64,000 bases of DNA from a virus (lineage: Duplodnaviria; Caudoviricetes), in the IMG/VR virus record IMGVR_UViG_3300028805_000055, positions 64,001-128,000 of that record. One strand, given 5' to 3'. Under the pieces are notes generated by a model that worked only from the letters and a program-made list of their open reading frames with translations, ran no database searches and was not told where the DNA came from. This document shows positions 419-63,760 of the stretch, piece after piece. The translations under genes were made by a program, and so were the position numbers. Position 1 is the first letter of the stretch. Every line of letters starts with the position of its first letter.

Positions 419-438
419 ATATATGTTTCACGTGAAAC

Positions 439-502
439 AAAAAAGCCAACCTATCTTCTCAGACTGGATGGCTTAGATGAATATGAATACATAATTTAAA
501 AC
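439..502 (-). terminator. intrinsic terminator preceded by a U-rich CAU tract (sRNA candidate)
   Basis: AAGCCATCCAGTCT-GAGA-AGATAGGTTGGCTT followed by a T run. Confidence 0.65.
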
Positions 503-2444: not shown

Positions 2445-2909
2445 TTAAATTAAGTTCTGAATAATATCCATAGCAGTGCTAATTTCTTCCATAGCAGGCT
2501 CATTACCCTCTGCATAGTTGTAAGCCAGTTGCAGGTTATTGTAGGCTGTTTCCAGATAACTCTTAGCATTTTCGCTAAGTTCACCATTCTGCATTGGAAC
2601 ACGCTGTACGCTAACCTCACCTATTGGCTGAGGAAACTCACCTAAGTGGTCTGTAAGAGTTAACACATCTAAATCGTTCAGTTGTGCCTCTGCAAGAAAC
2701 TCTGCATACTCTGTTCTGCCCTCTTGGTTGGCATCGTCAATCCAGATGTCAATGGTGTCAGCATCGGCTCTTTCAAGGGTATAGTTCCCATCGACAAACT
2801 TGTCTCGCCTAACCATGTTTACAACCATTTCGTGCTGCTCTTGTGACAACTCGAAAGTTTTGATAACGTAACCGCATCCTGCGGTCTGTAAAAGTCCTAA
2901 ATTCTCCAT
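2445..2909 (-). CDS. hypothetical protein
   Basis: start moved to MENLGLL, downstream of promoter 2938-2971. Confidence 0.75.
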   Translation of the reverse strand: MENLGLLQTAGCGYVIKTFELSQEQHEMVVNMVRRDKFVDGNYTLERADADTIDIWIDDANQEGRTEYAEFLAEAQLNDLDVLTLTDHLGEFPQPIGEVSVQRVPMQNGELSENAKSYLETAYNNLQLAYNYAEGNEPAMEEISTAMDIIQNLI

Positions 2910-2971: not shown

Positions 2972-2992
2972 TTTTTTATGTTAAAACTTCTA

Positions 2993-3027
2993 AAAACAAG
3001 GGGAGCACCCCAATCTGGAGTGCTCCC
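2993..3027 (-). terminator. intrinsic terminator
   Basis: GGGAGCACTCCA-GAT-TGGGGTGCTCCC then CTTGTTTTT. Confidence 0.75.
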
Positions 3028-3079
3028 ATCAACCTAACAATCATTATGGAAAACAAACAGCGTTATCACAACGCAACGA

Positions 3080-3153
3080 TGGTGTATCCAGAGGGACTTG
3101 AACCCCCGACCCCCACATCAAATGTGGTGCTCTACCAACTGAGCTATAGACAC
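3080..3153 (-). tRNA. tRNA-Ala-like gene with a 5-nt anticodon loop (74 nt, encoded CCA)
   Basis: GTGTCTA/TGGATAC acceptor with G3:U70, A73-CCA, canonical D and T arms, anticodon arm CCACA-TTTGA-TGTGG. Confidence 0.8.
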
Positions 3154-3159
3154 TTAAAA

Positions 3160-3940
3160 AAATGAGCGGGGTGGGACACCAACACCTTGATGGCAAAGGC
3201 GAGTGCGTTAAGCAGCGCAGTTCGGCATCTGTGTGGGTCTCTCCCACCTCACTCTCTAATGGGGCATGGCAAGCGCATAATATACTCGGCTAAATTGGCT
3301 CGCTCGCCTAACATCGCCCCTCTCTGTTGAAAAATGGGCATCCTATAACTAACATCCGCATTGCTTGGCAGTAGAATTGTGCGCACGTTACCCCTTATGC
3401 GGTATTGTCTCAACTTCGGTATGCCCTAATCTCCCTTGGCAGTGGTTTAATAGCCAATACGGATGCGTCCAAATGCGGCTCTCTTATGGCTCTCTTGTAG
3501 CGGCGGTGGGCGCAATGTGCCTCGGAAATGGCGGCTCTCTGGATATTAGTCGCTCATTGACACTTACGGCTCGCGGGACTATCTCATGTGTCCCAAACTC
3601 ACTTGCCCTTTGGCATTAAAGTTTACTCATGTGGCGGCATTGTAACGTTACACGAACTTTACCCTATCTCCACCTTGTTGGGGTTTTTTATTTTATTAAA
3701 ATCGTCTATCATCTAAGTATCATTCCTTAGTTGGGTCGGTCTCTAATCATACTCTATGATGTGGGGATTTTTCCATGCACCCCTTTACATTTTTAAATTC
3801 ATGCTCGATTATATAATACTCCGAAATTATCTAACTATGTACAAGCCCTTTAGGGCGGGGGTCGTTCATTACTATTCATCACTGCATACTTTTAATATTA
3901 ATACTACTTGGTCTGGGGGACTGGCGTCAGCCCGTGCGTG
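3160..3940 (-). ncRNA. candidate large structured ncRNA (~780 nt)
   Basis: no credible ORF; nested long helices (3164-3176/3242-3254, 3261-3275/3301-3320, 3336-3343/3418-3426); lies between a promoter-driven small ORF and a tRNA-like gene. Confidence 0.6.
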
Positions 3941-3942
3941 AC

Positions 3943-4065
3943 CTAACGCATTGGACGGATTTTGTAGAGCTGTGTCTTAGTACCGTCCCCGTTTTCTCTT
4001 ACTTTGCTTGGCATCGCCACGACTCTGATGTTAGCAATGGAGCGTAGAAATCTCTTTTTACTCAT
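3943..4065 (-). CDS. small basic protein (40 aa, MSKKRFLRSIAN...)
   Basis: ORF directly below promoter 4087-4120; too short for the ORF track. Confidence 0.55.
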   Translation of the reverse strand: MSKKRFLRSIANIRVVAMPSKVRENGDGTKTQLYKIRPMR

Positions 4066-4086: not shown

Positions 4087-4120
4087 TGCAAAGATATAAG
4101 TTTTTTTTGAGAAATCCAAA
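4087..4120 (-). promoter_or_regulatory. Bacteroidota sigma promoter
   Basis: TTTGG...TATCTTTGCA. Confidence 0.8.
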
Positions 4121-43077: not shown

Positions 43078-43218
43078 TATATTCTCGAATTTTAATATTT
43101 TTTAAATTAAAACGTCATCGTCTCCTTTACATTTTGTCCATGCCCAGGCAAACAGGCAGGAAAAGGCAAATACTATTACCAACTGAATTAATTTCTCCTC
43201 CATAACACTATCTATTTG

Positions 43219-43301
43219 AGACACGGGTGAGATTCGAACTCACGTACCTTTCGGTCAAAGCTTTTGCAGAGCCAGGCGATTGACCACTCCGCCACCGTGT
43301 C
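43219..43301 (-). tRNA. tRNA-Cys(GCA) with a long variable arm
   Basis: acceptor GACACGG/CCGTGTC, U73, loop CT GCA AA, variable arm ACC-GAAA-GGT, T-arm GTGAG-TTCGAAT-CTCAC. Confidence 0.85.
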
Positions 43302-55024: not shown

Positions 55025-56434
55025 TTACACAGTCAGAGTTCTCAGCTTAGCCTCTACGACCTCGAAACACTCATCCTTTGACATATTAGGATTCTCGATA
55101 TAAGCCTCCTTAACTGCCTCCAGGAGTATACCTACGTTAGGACCTTTCTTAATCTTGAACTCGGTCATGATGTCGTTTCCGTCGATAGGGAGCTTAAGGT
55201 TTACCAGTTTGTCAACCTCGTCCAGCTCTTCAATTCTCTTTAAGACATCAAGCACCTGGGTCTTCTTCTTGTTGAAGACTTTATGCACGTTGTTGGCATG
55301 CATCAAGTCCATAGTCACTGCAAGGTTGTCACCACAAGAGTTTATCAGCTTTCTGATTTTCTTGTCTGGTGGCAGGAATCCATCAGTATAGGTAGAGAAC
55401 CACTCATGGTGTCTGATAGCCACACACACAGACTTGATGACATCGTTAGGGAGCTTCATTTTTTTAAGGTCAGACTCAGCAACCTCAGCACTAAACTGGT
55501 TGGGTGATACAGTCCTGTCGTTGGCTGTAGCTATCCTACCAACATCGTGAAACAATGCAGCCAATCTGTGCTCCTCATAAGGTTCTACAGCGTCCAGCAC
55601 TTCCATTGTATGGTCAAACGTTGTAATAACAGGGTTCTTACACTCGAATGCATGACGCATATCACTGATGTCTGGCATAATGATATCCAAGAGGCCACAG
55701 TAGAACATCTTACGAACACCGACACTTGCATTGGCTGAGCAGATGATTTTCAGAACTTCATCCGTGATTCTCTCCTGTGATACAATCTTAATTCTGTTGG
55801 CGTTCTTAACCATACCAAGCCATGTATCCTTTTCGATTCCCCATCCATATCGACAAGAGAATCTAATGACTCTGAGGATTCTCAGTGGGTCATCACAGAA
55901 GGTAATATCTGGGTCGGCAGGAGTCCTTATAATCTGGTTGGTAATGTCGTATAAGCCAGTTCCGTTGTAGTCGTAAATCTTACCGTCTGATATGTTGTAG
56001 TACAGCGAGTTGATGGTAAGGTCACGTCTCTTGGCATCCTCCTGGATAGTACCGTAGCACGTCTCTGGATTGTGACTGTCCTTGTGGTATTGCTCCTTTC
56101 TGGTCTGCACACACTCCAGCTCCATACCCTCACACTCTGGGTCATTATAGAACTGTACCTTTGCAGTGCCGTAGGTCTCGAATACAACAGGGTTAGAACC
56201 AGACTTATAGGAATCATCCTTTATGGCTACAAAGTTAGCAAAGCTAAGACCACCATTCTTCTCTTCAACAACAATGTCGATATCCTTTACAGGCTGTCCT
56301 AGTATCAAGTCACGGACACAACCACCAACATAATACACCTTACCCTCGAAGTAGTTGCCTTTAATCATTTCTTCCAACTTCTTCGTCACTGCAATTATCT
56401 TCTTATCAGCGTTTTTAAACAGTATCTCGTTCAT
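55025..56434 (-). CDS. cca: CCA-adding tRNA nucleotidyltransferase with HD domain
   Basis: YVGGCVRD, KDIDI, DAKRRDLTINSL, DDPLRILR, SQERI, LFHDVG. Confidence 0.88.
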   Translation of the reverse strand: MNEILFKNADKKIIAVTKKLEEMIKGNYFEGKVYYVGGCVRDLILGQPVKDIDIVVEEKNGGLSFANFVAIKDDSYKSGSNPVVFETYGTAKVQFYNDPECEGMELECVQTRKEQYHKDSHNPETCYGTIQEDAKRRDLTINSLYYNISDGKIYDYNGTGLYDITNQIIRTPADPDITFCDDPLRILRVIRFSCRYGWGIEKDTWLGMVKNANRIKIVSQERITDEVLKIICSANASVGVRKMFYCGLLDIIMPDISDMRHAFECKNPVITTFDHTMEVLDAVEPYEEHRLAALFHDVGRIATANDRTVSPNQFSAEVAESDLKKMKLPNDVIKSVCVAIRHHEWFSTYTDGFLPPDKKIRKLINSCGDNLAVTMDLMHANNVHKVFNKKKTQVLDVLKRIEELDEVDKLVNLKLPIDGNDIMTEFKIKKGPNVGILLEAVKEAYIENPNMSKDECFEVVEAKLRTLTV

Positions 56435-56451
56435 TCGAAAATCATTTTTGG

Positions 56452-56485
56452 TGCAAAGATATAAAAAAAATCTGAGACTACCAAG
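56452..56485 (-). promoter_or_regulatory. Bacteroidota sigma promoter with an imperfect hairpin
   Basis: CTTGG...TATCTTTGCA. Confidence 0.8.
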
Positions 56486-56513
56486 TAACAATCCCAGATT
56501 TAATATTATTTAA

Positions 56514-57283: not shown

Positions 57284-58708
57284 TTAACCATGTCCTTCAC
57301 CATCATCGGTTGCCATTACACCAGCAACTGCATTATTTCTGAAGTCAGTGATTGTATTCACCATTTGTTCTATTCTCTCATTACGCTGTTGAATAGTCTC
57401 TAGTGGATGCCCAGGGTCAACTGGGTGTCCAAGATTTCCAGCCAACTCTGTTGGGTCGAACGTTATTCTTCTTCCGTGAATGGGTTCATAGTTAATCCCA
57501 TTGTCATCCGTAAAGATTCTTCTATCGACCCTATAGCCGTTTCCACCATTCTCTACTATTGCTATTCTAGGCTCTTCTGTAGCATCGCCTTCCTCGAACT
57601 CTGGCAGTTCCTCAAGTTCTGGTTCTCCACGCTCTTCCTCCACGTCATCAACACCCATTTCCATTTCAGCGTCACCATCCAGGTTGTTTAGGTCATCTAA
57701 AAGCTCCTGGTATGGGTCTCTCGGTGGTTGGTTACGAGGTGCTTGAATGCCATGTAGACTGCCCGTAAACCTTTTAGGGGCTTTCTTAAAAGTTTTGGAT
57801 ATGTCACCCATTTCAAGACGAAACCCAAATGCACCCTCCACTGTGTCGTTCAAGCTAAAAATGTTGTTGATATCTGTTGATGCCATGAATCTGATGTTGT
57901 TGAGGTGACAGTTATCACCTTCACCAGTGAACATCCACACATACGGTTTCACATTAGCTTTAACGAACTCTGAGTAGATTTTGTCAATCGTCAATCTCTC
58001 GTTGATTGCGTCATCGATAACCTCCTTGTCTGAGCCAGACCACTTGCTATCCGAATAGGTTGAAGTGTCAGTACCAACGAAAGAAGGTGGTACATGGGTC
58101 ACAACACAAGCAATCTTATTGTCTGCCAGTATCTCCTTGAGTTCATCCTCGTTGAATTTGGTAGACTCGCCATCCCAGTACAGGGTCTTCTTGAGCCTTC
58201 CACCCTGGGTCTGCTTCCACTTCCTGTCAAGTGAGACACCACCACCAATGCAAAGGCAGTTGAATCCATTGAACTTGATGAGTGAATAATCATCTACAGC
58301 CTTGATGTTACTATAGTTGATTTTGCCCTCAGTAAAGTAGGAAGGGTCATCACTGTTACCACGAATGAAAATGATGTGGGTATTGTTCTTCTCCAGTATT
58401 TCGTTGAGTGACTTAAAGATTTCATCGAAATGTTCGAAACTCTTAGAGCCGAATCCTGTACTACCAGAGAAAATGATAACACTGTCGTTAAACGTGCCAT
58501 CACCCTTACGCATCATTCCAAGACCACCCTTTGGTGACTTCTTTCTCCTACTAAGTCTTTCCTGCCTCTCAATCTCCTTTGGATGGAGCTGGATGCTATT
58601 ACTAGATGACAACCTTTTGGAGATTATGGGAATCAGTGACTCTTCTTTATTCAGTACGCTACCTCCCAGATAGACGTTACTAAACTTTTGATAATCGTAA
58701 ATCTTCAT
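57284..58708 (-). CDS. degenerate metallophosphoesterase with a long acidic tail
   Basis: fold motifs present (FIRGN-x-DDP-x-YF, CIGG-x-x-S-x-DR, VTH-x-PP), but metal ligands are substituted. Confidence 0.75.
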   Translation of the reverse strand: MKIYDYQKFSNVYLGGSVLNKEESLIPIISKRLSSSNSIQLHPKEIERQERLSRRKKSPKGGLGMMRKGDGTFNDSVIIFSGSTGFGSKSFEHFDEIFKSLNEILEKNNTHIIFIRGNSDDPSYFTEGKINYSNIKAVDDYSLIKFNGFNCLCIGGGVSLDRKWKQTQGGRLKKTLYWDGESTKFNEDELKEILADNKIACVVTHVPPSFVGTDTSTYSDSKWSGSDKEVIDDAINERLTIDKIYSEFVKANVKPYVWMFTGEGDNCHLNNIRFMASTDINNIFSLNDTVEGAFGFRLEMGDISKTFKKAPKRFTGSLHGIQAPRNQPPRDPYQELLDDLNNLDGDAEMEMGVDDVEEERGEPELEELPEFEEGDATEEPRIAIVENGGNGYRVDRRIFTDDNGINYEPIHGRRITFDPTELAGNLGHPVDPGHPLETIQQRNERIEQMVNTITDFRNNAVAGVMATDDGEGHG

Positions 58709-61222: not shown

Positions 61223-63760
61223 TTATTGCCAGTCGTCATCATCAAGCTGATATCCTGCTGGCACAACAACTGGTTGTGCTACCTCATCACCAGTTGCAAT
61301 TCTAGGAGCTTGGACTCTTGCAGTGAAAGGCTCAAATCTTACAAAGGTACGTGAAGACGACTGTCCTTCCATCTTCTTAGCCATAGCCTCCAGTCTTTCA
61401 ACCGACTGTGCTACAGCCTGGTGCTTGCTTGCAAGCTCTTCCAGAAGCTTCTTAAGGTTTTCGTTACCACTAGTGAAAGCGTAGCCAATCCAAGATGAAC
61501 AACCATCACATCTCTCGCTGAAGTTCATGAGCTTTGCTACTCTCTCCATGATATCGTCAAACACCTCACCCTTCTTATGTCCCATGAAAATGGTATTGAC
61601 CAGTCTCTTGCAGTAGTAGTTGCCGTGCTCGTCCTTTCCCTCATGGTCAAGAATGTGTACAATGGCAAGATAAGTTCCTACGTACATGGTCTTCTCGTAG
61701 GATTCAAGTTTCCTGTCATAGAATGCCTGGATATCCTCACTTGTGGGCTTGTTGTATTTACCGTCATCAACTCTTCTGCCGTTTTCAATGAGAGAGTTAA
61801 TAACCTCTTTCAGTACGGTTGATGTATTACCATTACCAATAATGTTATGCATTGCAAGACCCCTTGAATAGAACAGGTTAAGGTAGTCGAATGACATACT
61901 TCCAACGATACTTGACACAATAAAGTCCACAGTGGTCTCACAACCAAGGTAGTCGAATATCACCTCAGAAAGCATGTGACCGTCCTTGATGGTTTCGTTC
62001 AACATAGGAACGTTGTAAGACAAGAACGCATTTTTTGCTTTCTCATAAGGGTCATCAGACCTTCTGATAATGTCATAAGGAAGACCGAATTGAGCCAACT
62101 TTGTATTGAAATCGAAACCTGGGTTCTGGCTGTGCTCATTAAAGATATTCATACAATAAGCCTCATCCTGTCTCTTATCACCGTTGACGATGATTGCGAA
62201 TTGGATTCTGTTAGGGTCATACTGACTCATAGAGAAATCCATGAAGATGATATGCTGCAAGCCCCAATGGTTCTCATTGATGGTCTCTATGTATGTGTCA
62301 CCAAGGAAGTATCTGATGTTTCTGTCAGTAACAGAGATAGCTACCAGATTATCCTTGTCAACCAAAACGTCAACATTGTCTTTCTTGACGCACTCGTACA
62401 AATAGGTGTACATAGCCTCCTTGTTCCATTCATACAGAGCCTTATCGTAGTGAGCAACCAGGTTGATGTCGATTCCACATTTGTCAAGGACGCTGTAGAT
62501 ACCGTTGTTAGTCCTAAAGTTGCTGATGAACGATTCAAGAAACACTCTCTCTTCCTGGGAGTCCTGCTTCATCATGTCGTTGTTCACGAAATCATGAGCA
62601 TGTGTAATACCCCTGTTATACTGAGTGGTGAAACCGATGATGGACAACAGGTCATCCTCTTTCTTTGAAAAGTCAAACACCATGTACTGAACAGCATCAC
62701 TCTGGTTTTCAACATAGTTGTTCCAGTATGACTTGTTCTTTGAAATACACCAGTTGGTAGTCTTTGCGAGGTGCTTGATTGTCTCGTAGTCAGTAACCTT
62801 AAGGAGTACAATATCATCTTTATCATACACAACCTCATATTTCATTTCCTCGACATTCTTGATGAAGTCCATGAAGGACTCCTTATTCCAGTCGAAGTGA
62901 GTGCTGGTGATATGTCTCATCTGTCTCATAAACTCAGCGAAGTCCTCTATAGTGGACATCTTGCGGATGAAATTGGTCTTTTTAGCCTCTGAGAGACGAT
63001 AGAACTTAGCAAGGGTAGTCTTATCCTTGTCAGAGAGTTCAACGCCCTTCAGCATCCTTTTCTGGGCTGTGTTGAATGAGTTAATGACATCGTTGACACG
63101 CTTCTCTTTCCTAAGGGTTGAAATCTCCTGTGAAAGAGCGTACATATCATTGCTAGATGTGTACGCAGTAATAGTACTCTTCGAGAGCTTCTTAATGAGC
63201 TGACCATATGACTCATTCCAAGCCATAACACGCTTGATGGTTGTCAATGACGTGCCATTCTGGAAATAGTTGTTGATAGCCCACATGTAGAAGTTCTTAG
63301 AACCCTCAGTATACATATAGATTCTCTTACTTATCTGGTCTTCGGTTGAGTAACCGAACTTGTCAGTAAGTGTACGAATCATCTTGGCGTTGGTTGACAG
63401 GAAGTTATTATAATCCTTAGTGAACGTTGGGGGCAGAAGAATAATCTCGTTGATAAAAGGGAAACCAGCAAGGGTAATATCACCAAACTCCATCAGTTTC
63501 TGGAACTGATAACCCATAAATGATGCTTCCTCTCTTGGGATAATACCAGAAGCCAGGGCACTATTAATACCAATGTTTCCGTAGTTGTAATGGTTGTTGA
63601 AGATAAGAAGCCTCTCACCAATGGGTGACTTAGGTTCAGTCTTCATAACCTTACAGAACTGATATCCAATACCCTCTCTGAAGTATATTAAAGCGTCTCT
63701 AAGAGAGGTGTCAGCTACTCTAAACAGATGTCTGACACCCCTAATATTCATTCCTATCAT
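61223..63760 (-). CDS. large phage protein with a T-x-WCI (PcfJ-like) domain, paralogue of 58836..60902
   Basis: FNTAQKRML, WNKESF, TTNWCISK, QYMVFDF, IGFT align with the downstream ORF. Confidence 0.8.
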   Translation of the reverse strand: MIGMNIRGVRHLFRVADTSLRDALIYFREGIGYQFCKVMKTEPKSPIGERLLIFNNHYNYGNIGINSALASGIIPREEASFMGYQFQKLMEFGDITLAGFPFINEIILLPPTFTKDYNNFLSTNAKMIRTLTDKFGYSTEDQISKRIYMYTEGSKNFYMWAINNYFQNGTSLTTIKRVMAWNESYGQLIKKLSKSTITAYTSSNDMYALSQEISTLRKEKRVNDVINSFNTAQKRMLKGVELSDKDKTTLAKFYRLSEAKKTNFIRKMSTIEDFAEFMRQMRHITSTHFDWNKESFMDFIKNVEEMKYEVVYDKDDIVLLKVTDYETIKHLAKTTNWCISKNKSYWNNYVENQSDAVQYMVFDFSKKEDDLLSIIGFTTQYNRGITHAHDFVNNDMMKQDSQEERVFLESFISNFRTNNGIYSVLDKCGIDINLVAHYDKALYEWNKEAMYTYLYECVKKDNVDVLVDKDNLVAISVTDRNIRYFLGDTYIETINENHWGLQHIIFMDFSMSQYDPNRIQFAIIVNGDKRQDEAYCMNIFNEHSQNPGFDFNTKLAQFGLPYDIIRRSDDPYEKAKNAFLSYNVPMLNETIKDGHMLSEVIFDYLGCETTVDFIVSSIVGSMSFDYLNLFYSRGLAMHNIIGNGNTSTVLKEVINSLIENGRRVDDGKYNKPTSEDIQAFYDRKLESYEKTMYVGTYLAIVHILDHEGKDEHGNYYCKRLVNTIFMGHKKGEVFDDIMERVAKLMNFSERCDGCSSWIGYAFTSGNENLKKLLEELASKHQAVAQSVERLEAMAKKMEGQSSSRTFVRFEPFTARVQAPRIATGDEVAQPVVVPAGYQLDDDDWQ

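What the first reader, a model, noticed from the sequence alone, without database searches (positions are those of the whole stretch)
3080..3153. tRNA-Ala-like RNA with an intact body but a 2-nt deletion in the anticodon loop
Seen: a 74-nt cloverleaf with intact acceptor, D and T arms, G3:U70, A73 and encoded CCA (the only tRNA here that has it). The loop is TTTGA (5 nt), equivalent to tRNA-Ala TTTGCAA minus two bases. Established: AlaRS recognises G3:U70 and ignores the anticodon. Inference: it could be alanylated but unable to decode normally. Possible roles are a decoy for anticodon nucleases or tRNA-modifying toxins, an Ala donor, a frameshifter, or an RNase P processing tag that matures the upstream long RNA. 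The otherwise perfect structure argues against simple decay.
Basis: partly seen in the sequence, partly recalled or inferred. Interest (0 to 1): 0.7.

Follow-up and report, generated by a model that had tools for sequence, protein, structure and literature searches.

The report
Non-decoding tRNA-shaped RNA in a phage
A large phage carries a well-folded tRNA look-alike, descended from an alanine tRNA, whose anticodon loop is too short to read codons. Related phages keep a tRNA-shaped RNA at the same spot with almost any loop, so it is probably kept for its shape (for example as an RNA-cutting signal) rather than for translation.

Summary
Window 3153..3080 (- strand) is a 74-nt cloverleaf (Rfam tRNA, 58.9 bits) with intact acceptor, D and T arms. 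It has G3:U70, A73 and an encoded CCA, but its anticodon arm is 15 nt instead of 17 (5-bp stem, 5-nt loop UUUGA).

The arm with its flanks equals a common tRNA-Ala(UGC) sequence minus "CA": all 74 metagenome matches carried CA. The "tRNA-Ala minus two bases" description is therefore right.

The closest relative (L007, 93% identical over 1.1 kb) has a 7-nt loop UUUGAUA, G3-C70 and a CCC tail. Neither the 5-nt loop, nor alanine identity, nor CCA is conserved.

What is conserved is the slot. Twelve related contigs have this unit. Eleven of them carry a tRNA-shaped element, complete or (L113) partly deleted, with loops of 4-22 nt or larger inserts. In seven aligned members 142 of 147 stem positions pair, with compensatory changes. 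One variant (L113) has lost most of the element.

My best reading (about 0.5) is a non-decoding tRNA-like module. It would be used for its top half as an RNase P/Z processing or end-protection signal at the 3' end of a roughly 1.1-kb early transcript. A slowly decaying tRNA gene is the main rival.

Read support could not be tested. The scan has noted tRNA-shaped punctuation and inserts in other phage genomes, but not this family.

The parts
3080..3153 (-). tRNA-like gene, 74 nt (G1 = 3153, A73 = 3083, CCA = 3082-3080)
   Evidence: ARAGORN; Rfam tRNA 58.9 bits; parse; cloverleaf minimum-free-energy fold
3113..3127 (-). Shortened anticodon arm: stem CCACA/UGUGG with 5-nt loop UUUGA (loop = 3118-3122)
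   Evidence: Sequence. It equals the tRNA-Ala(UGC) arm minus CA. L007 has UUUGAUA here.
4087..4096 (-). Bacteroidota-type -7 promoter box TATCTTTGCA, taken as the start of the transcription unit
   Evidence: The motif TANNTTTGCA occurs 27 times in the window against 3.85 expected. No other copy lies between this one and the tRNA-like gene.
3943..4065 (-). Conserved 40-aa basic ORF, the first gene of the unit
   Evidence: 11 invariant columns over 10 relatives. No Pfam or PHROG match.
3850..3879 (-). Mini-ORF 1: MNSNERPPP-stop, a conserved leader-like peptide
   Evidence: Sequences. Arg is coded CGA, CGT, CGC or AGA, and Pro is coded CCC, CCG, CCA or CCT, across relatives.
3727..3750 (-). Mini-ORF 2: MIRDRPN-stop. 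It is identical in L016, and L009 has a paralogous form.
3164..3763 (-). Long ORF-free, GC-rich RNA. It ends in a rod (3254-3164) followed by a U7 run (3162-3156) just before the tRNA-like gene.
   Evidence: 79% identical to L016 over about 500 nt, although the neighbouring 40-aa protein is only 40% identical by tblastn. No Rfam family.
3060..3074 (-). Trailer hairpin GCGUU-GUGAU-AACGC directly after the tRNA-like gene
   Evidence: Compensatory changes between L001 and L015.
3028..3059 (-). Conserved single-stranded trailer (UGUUUGUUUUCCAUAAUGAUUGUUAGGUUGA)
   Evidence: Nearly invariant in 9 relatives. Only one exact copy in the window.
2992..3027 (-). Strong intrinsic terminator (12-bp stem plus T run), taken as the end of the unit

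Best explanation
This is a real, inherited, non-decoding tRNA-shaped RNA. It descends from a tRNA-Ala(UGC) gene and is one allele of a fast-changing family that sits at a fixed place in related rumen-type jumbo phages.

That place is the 3' part of an early transcription unit. The unit runs: promoter, 40-aa ORF, ERPPP-stop mini-ORF, variable structured RNA, tRNA-like element, conserved trailer, terminator.

Selection keeps the L-shape (acceptor stem, D arm, T arm and a closed 5-bp anticodon hairpin) but not an anticodon. The most likely use is therefore the part of a tRNA that RNase P, RNase Z and the CCA-adding enzyme recognise. On this reading the element acts as a cutting and end-protection signal. 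It would separate the upstream RNA, which ends in a rod plus U run, from the conserved trailer, which has the layout of a small RNA (hairpin, single-stranded stretch, terminator).

Shown here: the structure, its descent from tRNA-Ala, the conservation of the slot, the variable loops and the compensatory changes.

Inferred: co-transcription, cleavage by RNase P/Z, and any role of the released pieces.

In this allele only, G3:U70, A73 and CCA may also allow alanylation. I take this as a leftover of its origin rather than its function.
For: (1) Fold and score.

(2) Ala origin: 74 of 74 metagenome matches to the arm with a free gap are tRNA-Ala(UGC) genes with CA in the gap.

(3) Slot conservation: syntenic tRNA-like elements occur in L001, L002, L003, L007, L013, L015, L099, L110 and L112, and as top halves in L009/L010 and L012.

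(4) Structure is selected and the loop is not:
- 142 of 147 stem cells pair in 7 aligned members.
- The anticodon stem pairs in 35 of 35 cells, with 2-5 pair types per position.
- Loop lengths are 7, 5, 5, 6, 4, 4 and 22 nt.
- On the 9-row alignment, 96.8% of cells pair against 70% in shuffles (0 of 500 shuffles reach it), and slid controls give 38-53%.

(5) L013 and L099 are almost identical over +-150 nt but have entirely different anticodon arms. L001 and L015 cannot be aligned upstream, yet share the tRNA-like element, trailer and terminator, with compensatory changes in the T stem and trailer hairpin.

(6) All substitutions between the window and L007 that lie inside stems keep pairing.

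(7) Unit limits: the promoter box at 4096-4087 is the only one upstream, and the terminators are at 3074-3060 and 3027-3001.

(8) The phage encodes its own CCA-adding enzyme.

(9) Precedent for tRNA-like cutting signals: plant mitochondrial t-elements (PMC1920247), mascRNA (abstract of 10.64898/2026.01.19.700226) and GUT15 (PMC6152437).
Against: No RNA data were available, so co-transcription and cleavage are untested.

One natural variant (L113) has lost the 3' two thirds of the element and the trailer hairpin, so the element is dispensable at least there.

Several relatives have mismatches at the base of the acceptor stem.

L016 keeps the unit without a tRNA-like element.

Real tRNA genes of this phage sit in the same kind of position, for example tRNA-Leu after a terminator-like hairpin. 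The location alone therefore does not set this element apart from an ex-tRNA gene.

The pair alignment was fitted to the model structure, which biases the counts towards pairing.
Confidence: 0.5

Rival explanations
1. It is a decaying tRNA gene. A tRNA-Ala gene in a recombination-prone tRNA slot lost two loop bases and is drifting towards loss, with no present function.
For: The 5-nt loop is private to this strain, since L007 has 7 nt. G3:U70 and CCA are not conserved. L113 deleted most of the element. Phages with the same 118-aa neighbour carry different cassettes. Several relatives have acceptor-stem mismatches. The tRNA-like part differs about 10% between the window and L007, against about 4% in its immediate flanks.
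Against: Decay should hit all arms. Here stems stay paired through compensatory changes, and the D and T loop motifs are intact, in lineages whose flanking non-coding DNA can no longer be aligned. Eleven of the twelve related contigs carry a tRNA-shaped element, complete or partly deleted, at this spot, and none of them has a canonical anticodon loop.
Confidence: 0.25
2. The RNA is charged with alanine by AlaRS through G3:U70 and acts without decoding, as an Ala donor, a decoy for tRNA-targeting toxins, or a frameshifter.
For: G3:U70, A73 and an encoded CCA are present. G3.U70 is the major Ala determinant and works in many contexts, and AlaRS does not read the anticodon (PMC9976931). The body is of tRNA-Ala origin.
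Against: L007 has G3-C70 and a CCC tail, and no other relative has G3:U70. G3-C70 abolishes alanylation (PMC9976931). G2-C71, G4-C69 and G20 are absent. An anticodon-nuclease decoy would need a conserved loop. Loop length varies from 4 to 22 nt, which argues against any decoding or frameshifting role.
Confidence: 0.1
3. It is an arms-race element. The tRNA-shaped body docks on a host tRNA-binding defence or processing factor, and the hypervariable anticodon arm is under diversifying selection.
For: The arm is swapped between otherwise near-identical relatives, L013 and L099. Phages sharing an identical 118-aa neighbour protein (88-93% nucleotide identity in the flanks) carry different cassettes. 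The genome holds many other odd tRNAs and tRNA mimics.
Against: No partner is known. The variation looks like relaxed constraint (any closed hairpin will do) as much as positive selection. One variant lacks the element.
Confidence: 0.08
4. It is a working decoder: tRNA-Gln(UUG) with a 4-bp anticodon stem and a 7-nt loop AUUUGAU, as ARAGORN draws it.
For: ARAGORN makes this call. In that register U33 and A37 are in place.
Against: The 5- or 6-bp stem is the stable fold. Functional tRNAs keep a 5-bp stem and a 7-nt loop (PMC7609411). No relative has a UUG anticodon. The body is Ala-type, not Gln-type.
Confidence: 0.03
5. It is an assembly or sequencing error: the true sequence has a 7-nt loop.
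For: Reads could not be examined. The only second contig with the 5-nt loop is 100% identical over 20 kb and may come from the same data.
Against: The indel is not in a homopolymer. An AT/ATAT length difference from L007 is an ordinary slippage variant. Relatives show every loop length, so nothing needs explaining away.
Confidence: 0.03

Closest known systems
t-elements of plant mitochondria and mitochondrial tRNA punctuation
   Same: tRNA-like folds without a decoding role sit at the ends of longer transcripts. They are thought to guide RNase P and RNase Z cuts (PMC1920247).
   Different: This one is in a phage of probable Bacteroidota hosts. It has a complete, well-formed cloverleaf rather than a partial one. 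It sits in a unit with leader-like mini-ORFs. Cleavage has not been shown.
mascRNA from MALAT1, and the GUT15 tRNA-like RNA
   Same: A small tRNA-like RNA with a reduced anticodon region lies at the 3' end of a long non-coding RNA and is released by tRNA-processing enzymes (abstract of 10.64898/2026.01.19.700226; PMC6152437).
   Different: Those are eukaryotic nuclear transcripts. There is no sequence relation. Here a terminator follows and the trailer is conserved.
Canonical bacterial and phage tRNA-Ala(UGC)
   Same: The D arm, anticodon stem, variable loop, G3:U70, A73 and CCA match. There are 74 exact matches to the arm plus CA. The phage has its own tRNA-Ala(UGC) at genome 152019-152093.
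   Different: The loop lacks two bases, so there is no anticodon. G2-C71, G4-C69 and G20 are missing. The closest relative has lost G3:U70.
tRNA 3' external transcribed spacer small RNAs of E. coli (3'ETS-leuZ; from my own knowledge, not checked here)
   Same: The layout is a tRNA-shaped unit followed by a conserved trailer that ends in a terminator hairpin. Processing could release that trailer as a small RNA.
   Different: There the tRNA is functional. Here no target or release of the trailer has been shown.
tmRNA tRNA-like domain
   Same: An alanine-type acceptor (G3:U70) on an RNA that has no anticodon.
   Different: There is no internal tag ORF and there are no pseudoknots. ARAGORN finds the phage's tmRNA elsewhere, at genome 147886-148260. 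G3:U70 is not conserved in relatives.

Membership tests
Rfam RF00005 (tRNA fold) | Covariance-model score at or above the 29-bit gathering score | tested here: met
   58.9 bits over model positions 1-71
Decoding (elongator) tRNA | 5-bp anticodon stem with a 7-nt loop, U33 and a purine at 37 | tested here: not met
   The loop is 5 nt (UUUGA), and 3 nt in the minimum-free-energy fold. The rule is taken from PMC7609411.
Decoding (elongator) tRNA | Anticodon conserved among orthologues | tested here: not met
   Loops of 4, 4, 5, 5, 6, 7, 7 and 22 nt with unrelated sequences, or larger inserts
Decoding (elongator) tRNA | Tertiary core: U8, A14, G18G19, G15-C48, T54-A58, C56 | tested here: met
   Read from the parse (D loop AGUUGGUA, variable loop GGGUC, T loop UUCAAGU)
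tRNA-Ala | G3.U70 wobble pair | tested here: met
   G3:U70 is present in the window and in the identical contig L111. It is absent in L007 and in every other relative.
tRNA-Ala | The other bacterial determinants: A73, G2-C71, G4-C69 and G20 (PMC9976931, Table 1) | tested here: not met
   A73 is present. U2-A71, U4-A69 and U20 stand in place of the others.
tRNA-Ala | Sequence descent from tRNA-Ala(UGC) | tested here: met
   All 74 metagenome matches to the arm with a free gap are tRNA-Ala(UGC) genes
tRNA-Ala | Aminoacylation with alanine | not testable with these tools
   Needs an in vitro AlaRS assay or acid-gel northern blots
tRNA-like processing signal (t-element or mascRNA type) | tRNA-like fold without a usable anticodon | tested here: met
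tRNA-like processing signal (t-element or mascRNA type) | Lies inside or at the end of a longer transcript | tested here: inconclusive
   Promoter box at 4096-4087 and terminators at 3074-3060 and 3027-3001, with no promoter motif in between. No RNA data.
tRNA-like processing signal (t-element or mascRNA type) | Cut by RNase P at the 5' end and by RNase Z or another nuclease at the 3' end | not testable with these tools
   Needs end mapping or in vitro cleavage
tmRNA | tRNA-like domain enclosing a tag ORF and pseudoknots | tested here: not met
   ARAGORN finds a tmRNA only at genome 147886-148260. There is no internal ORF here.

The most novel reading that the evidence does not exclude
The unit is a new kind of phage regulatory or counter-defence RNA. 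Arrest-type leader peptides (ERPPP-stop and RDRP-x-stop) would sense the state of host translation and control read-through into a 3' module. In that module a tRNA-shaped body with a fast-diversifying anticodon arm docks on a host tRNA-binding factor and releases a conserved small RNA. The arm variation would then reflect an arms race rather than relaxed constraint.
Probability: 0.12. Interest if true: 0.8.

Novelty: new variant of a known kind. Interest (0 to 1): 0.5.

Why it matters
Phage tRNA genes are usually read as codon-usage helpers or as spares against host anticodon nucleases. Here a phage lineage keeps a tRNA shape at one spot while letting the anticodon arm take almost any form. 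That points to a use of the tRNA fold itself: RNA cutting, end protection, or docking on tRNA-binding proteins.

If cleavage is confirmed, this would be a phage counterpart of mitochondrial t-elements and mascRNA. It would also warn annotators, because such genes get called Gln, Ser, Arg, Leu or Lys tRNAs by software although they cannot decode.

The surrounding unit is worth study in its own right. It contains conserved polyproline-stop mini-ORFs, a 500-nt RNA better conserved than the neighbouring protein, and an invariant trailer.

Tried and rejected
- Near relatives in GenBank phages: none by megablast. The distant search found only generic tRNA hits.
- Exact search for the 5-nt-loop arm in IMG/VR: no hit. 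The T-arm pattern found only L007 and one unrelated tRNA-Thr.
- The downstream protein (as the 165-aa TTG-start frame) gave no relatives in IMG/VR and is not on record in that frame. Its true start gives 154 aa.
- Prokaryote genomes hold no relative of the 40-aa ORF.
- A wider profile of the 40-aa ORF added no new viral contigs.
- Stop-codon recoding as an explanation for the odd tRNAs: no signal in ORF-length statistics.
- Known RNA family for the upstream long RNA (including GOLLD, ROOL, RNase P RNA and YrlA): nothing in Rfam up to E = 10. My idea that it might be a diverged RNase P RNA, based on a possible P4-like pairing read by eye, has no support from the models and is dropped.
- Trailer motif elsewhere in the window, as a target or repeat: not above chance.
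- Pfam and PHROGs for the 40-aa ORF and its neighbours: no hits.
- Antisense ORF across the tRNA-like gene: the frames differ between relatives, and the hairpin changes are compensatory at the RNA level, so this was rejected (and reading of the sequences).
- Testing whether the identical contig L111 is independent of the window's record: its record is not held. 20.5 kb is 100% identical, so independence stays open.

Full report
**What is there.** The window is bases 64001-128000 of a 153,679-bp IMG/VR virus record. The record has 40% G+C and CheckV rates it about 52% complete, which suggests a jumbo phage. ARAGORN and Rfam both place a tRNA-shaped gene at 3153..3080 on the - strand, with an Rfam tRNA score of 58.9 bits against a cut-off of 29.

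Parsed base by base, the gene has:
- a 7-bp acceptor stem with G3:U70;
- a normal D arm with the GG of the elbow;
- a 5-bp stem CCACA/UGUGG closed by only five bases, UUUGA;
- variable loop GGGUC;
- a normal T arm (UUCAAGU);
- A73 and an encoded CCA.

The anticodon arm is 15 nt instead of 17. ARAGORN copes by drawing a 4-bp stem and calling the gene Gln(UUG). The free-energy fold gives the cloverleaf with a 6-bp stem and a 3-nt loop. The one exception is that CCA is unique among the window's three tRNAs only, not in the genome.

**Where the body comes from.** I searched metagenome contigs for the D-stem 3' half, anticodon arm and variable loop, leaving a free gap of 0-2 nt where the bases are missing. 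All 74 hits had a 2-nt gap filled with CA. All were ordinary tRNA-Ala(UGC) genes with GGG... acceptors and ACCA ends. No other copy of the 5-nt form turned up.

**Is the short loop an error or a private mutation?** Raw reads could not be examined.
- A 93-kb JGI contig (L111/L115) has the identical element. It is also 100% identical over 20.5 kb, so it may not be independent.
- The closest distinct relative, L007, is 93% identical over the whole 1.1-kb unit. It has the same body with loop UUUGAUA, that is the window's loop plus one more AT. It also has G26, G57, the acceptor 3' strand GCG in place of AUA (giving U2.G71, G3-C70 and U4.G69), and a CCC tail.
- The 5-nt loop is therefore specific to this strain.
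- L007's 7-nt loop is not a working one either. Its anticodon would be UGA (Ser) on an Ala-type class I body, with U37 and without G3:U70.
- If the ancestor had UUUGCAA, the shortest path is loss of CA followed by an AT duplication in L007 (two events against three). This is an inference.

**The family.** Using neighbouring proteins (the 364-aa gene, the 40-aa ORF and the 118-aa gene) and the conserved trailer, I collected twelve related contigs.

Eleven of the twelve have a tRNA-shaped element, complete or (L113) partly deleted, at the same place. The exception is L016.

| Contigs | Anticodon region |
|---|---|
| L001, L015 | 5-bp stem, 4-nt loop |
| L003 | 5-nt loop |
| L002 | 6-nt loop |
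| L007, L099 | 7-nt loops (UUUGAUA; CAUUUGC with A33) |
| L013 | 22-nt loop |
| L110, L112 | 29-nt anticodon region |
| L009/L010 | acceptor stem and T arm enclosing about 105 nt |
| L012 | acceptor stem, T arm and a small hairpin |

- In the seven members aligned to a covariance model, 142 of 147 stem cells pair. The anticodon stem pairs in 35 of 35 cells, with two to five different pair types per position.
- On the nine-row alignment, which includes two ordinary tRNA-Leu genes, 96.8% of cells pair against 70% in shuffles, and slid controls give 38-53%. That alignment was fitted to the structure, which favours pairing. The hand parse gives the same picture.
- No relative other than the window and its identical copy has G3:U70 or CCA.

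**How fast it changes.**
- L013 and L099 are nearly identical for 150 nt on either side, but their anticodon arms are completely different.
- L001 and L015 cannot be aligned upstream, yet they share the tRNA-like element, trailer and terminator. They show compensatory changes in the T stem and in the trailer hairpin.
- Phages that encode the very same 118-aa protein as the window carry a different tRNA-like cassette (L110, L112).
- In one of those phages (L113), a deletion removes everything from the anticodon arm through the trailer hairpin.
- The shape is therefore maintained across deep divergence. The anticodon arm is free to vary, and the element can be lost.

**Context.** The - strand unit runs as follows:
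- a Bacteroidota-type -7 box at 4096-4087 (27 such boxes in the window against 3.85 expected);
- a conserved 40-aa ORF at 4065-3943;
- a conserved mini-ORF MNSNERPPP-stop at 3879-3850;
- a second mini-ORF MIRDRPN-stop at 3750-3727;
- a GC-rich ORF-free RNA ending in a rod and a U7 run (3254-3156);
- the tRNA-like gene;
- a small hairpin at 3074-3060;
- a nearly invariant single-stranded stretch at 3059-3028;
- a strong terminator at 3027-3001.

No promoter box lies between 4087 and the tRNA-like gene, so co-transcription is the simplest reading. This is inferred. The long RNA is shared with L007 and, at 79% identity, with the distant 412-kb contig L016. It is absent from most relatives that keep a tRNA-like element, and L016 lacks a tRNA-like element. 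The tRNA-like element thus belongs to the unit and its 3' module, not specifically to the long RNA.

The phage encodes a class II CCA-adding enzyme with an HD domain.

**Mechanism.** Across the family the acceptor stem and T arm are retained in every member that still has the element intact. The D arm and a closed hairpin are also retained in most, though the D arm is degenerate in L012. The acceptor/T-arm stack and elbow are what RNase P, RNase Z and CCA-adding enzymes read on a tRNA (established knowledge). The part that decoding and most synthetases need is not retained.

I therefore favour a processing and end-protection module. Known counterparts are plant mitochondrial t-elements (PMC1920247), mascRNA and the GUT15 tRNA-like RNA (PMC6152437). 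A cut at G1 would leave the upstream RNA ending in a rod plus U run. A cut after A73 would free a trailer with the layout of a small RNA. All of this is inference, and I put it at about 0.5.

The main rival is a decaying ex-tRNA gene in a tRNA slot (0.25). Real tRNAs of this phage sit in similar positions, and L113 shows the element can be lost. The compensatory record argues against pure drift.

Alanine charging of this one allele remains possible, because G3.U70 is the dominant determinant (PMC9976931). It cannot be the conserved function, because G3-C70 abolishes it and only two of the five bacterial determinants are present.

**Novelty and score.** tRNA-like processing signals and pseudo-tRNAs are both known. 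What I have not seen described is a conserved phage slot that holds complete cloverleaves with interchangeable, non-decoding anticodon arms, inside a unit with polyproline-stop mini-ORFs and an invariant trailer. Two literature searches found no such description.

I rate it a new variant of a known kind, with interest 0.5. Earlier notes of this scan describe mini-tRNA punctuation and tRNA-shaped inserts in other phage genomes. They gave me the t-element lead, but they concern other DNA and were not used as evidence.

Noticed in passing
window 3850-3879 (-) and 3727-3750 (-); L001, L002, L003, L009, L012, L013, L015, L016: Two conserved mini-ORFs sit in the 'non-coding' spacer: M-x-x-x-E-R-P-P-P-stop and M-x-R-D-R-P-x-stop. 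The Arg and Pro codons vary synonymously (CGA, CGT, CGC or AGA; CCC, CCG, CCA or CCT). The Pro codons pair with a GGG just after the stop. They look like ribosome-arrest or leader peptides (polyproline at termination).
   Followed up: partly
window 3164-3763 (-); L016 3571-4069: A roughly 500-nt GC-rich ORF-free RNA is 79% identical to a 412-kb phage contig whose neighbouring 40-aa protein is only 40% identical by tblastn. Compensatory changes are visible. There is no Rfam family.
   Followed up: partly
window 3028-3074 (-) and all relatives: The trailer after the tRNA-like gene (a small hairpin plus UGUUUUCCAUAAUGA..UUGUUAGGUUGA) is more conserved than the tRNA-like gene itself. It occurs once in the window. 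It may be a small-RNA seed or a protein-binding site.
   Followed up: partly
genome 135956-153637 (outside the window) and window 43218-43301 (-): Many tRNAs of this phage have a long variable arm, which is the type II shape, but carry Trp, Thr, Lys, Cys or Met anticodons. There is also a tRNA with a CUA (amber) anticodon. ORF statistics gave no clear sign of stop-codon recoding.
   Followed up: partly
genome 147886-148260 (-): A phage-encoded tmRNA with tag GENVDSPAYAYAVAA (ARAGORN).
   Followed up: no
genome about 62925-63039 (-), roughly 960-1075 nt before the window start: A second tRNA mimic with an acceptor stem, a T arm (UUCGAAU) and a roughly 50-nt structured insert in place of the anticodon loop. 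Other first readers noted it, and I confirmed the sequence features.
   Followed up: partly
genome 145080-145200 (-): A 121-nt Rfam tRNA match (39.9 bits) carries a roughly 48-nt insert in the anticodon region. It may be an intron-like insert.
   Followed up: no
window 55025-56491 (-) and 57284-58708 (-): The phage encodes a CCA-adding enzyme (PolyA_pol head, RNA-binding and HD domains) close to (two genes from) a metallophosphoesterase-like protein. Together they may form a tRNA end-repair set.
   Followed up: partly
whole window: The Bacteroidota-type promoter box TAnnTTTGCA occurs 27 times against 3.85 expected, nearly all on the - strand in front of genes. This suggests a Bacteroidota host.
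   Followed up: partly
window about 424-439 (-), just upstream of tRNA-Leu(UAA): The palindrome TGTTTCACGTGAAACA, which matches the chromosomal parS consensus, lies between a terminator-like hairpin and tRNA-Leu.
   Followed up: no
L001 10463-10540: In one relative the syntenic tRNA with a UAA (Leu) anticodon is a 76-nt class I tRNA without the long variable arm. The window's copy is 93 nt.
   Followed up: no
window 2445-2909 (-): The gene downstream of the unit starts at the ATG at 2909 (154 aa, as called in public assemblies). It does not start at the TTG at 2942 that gives the 165-aa frame.
   Followed up: yes
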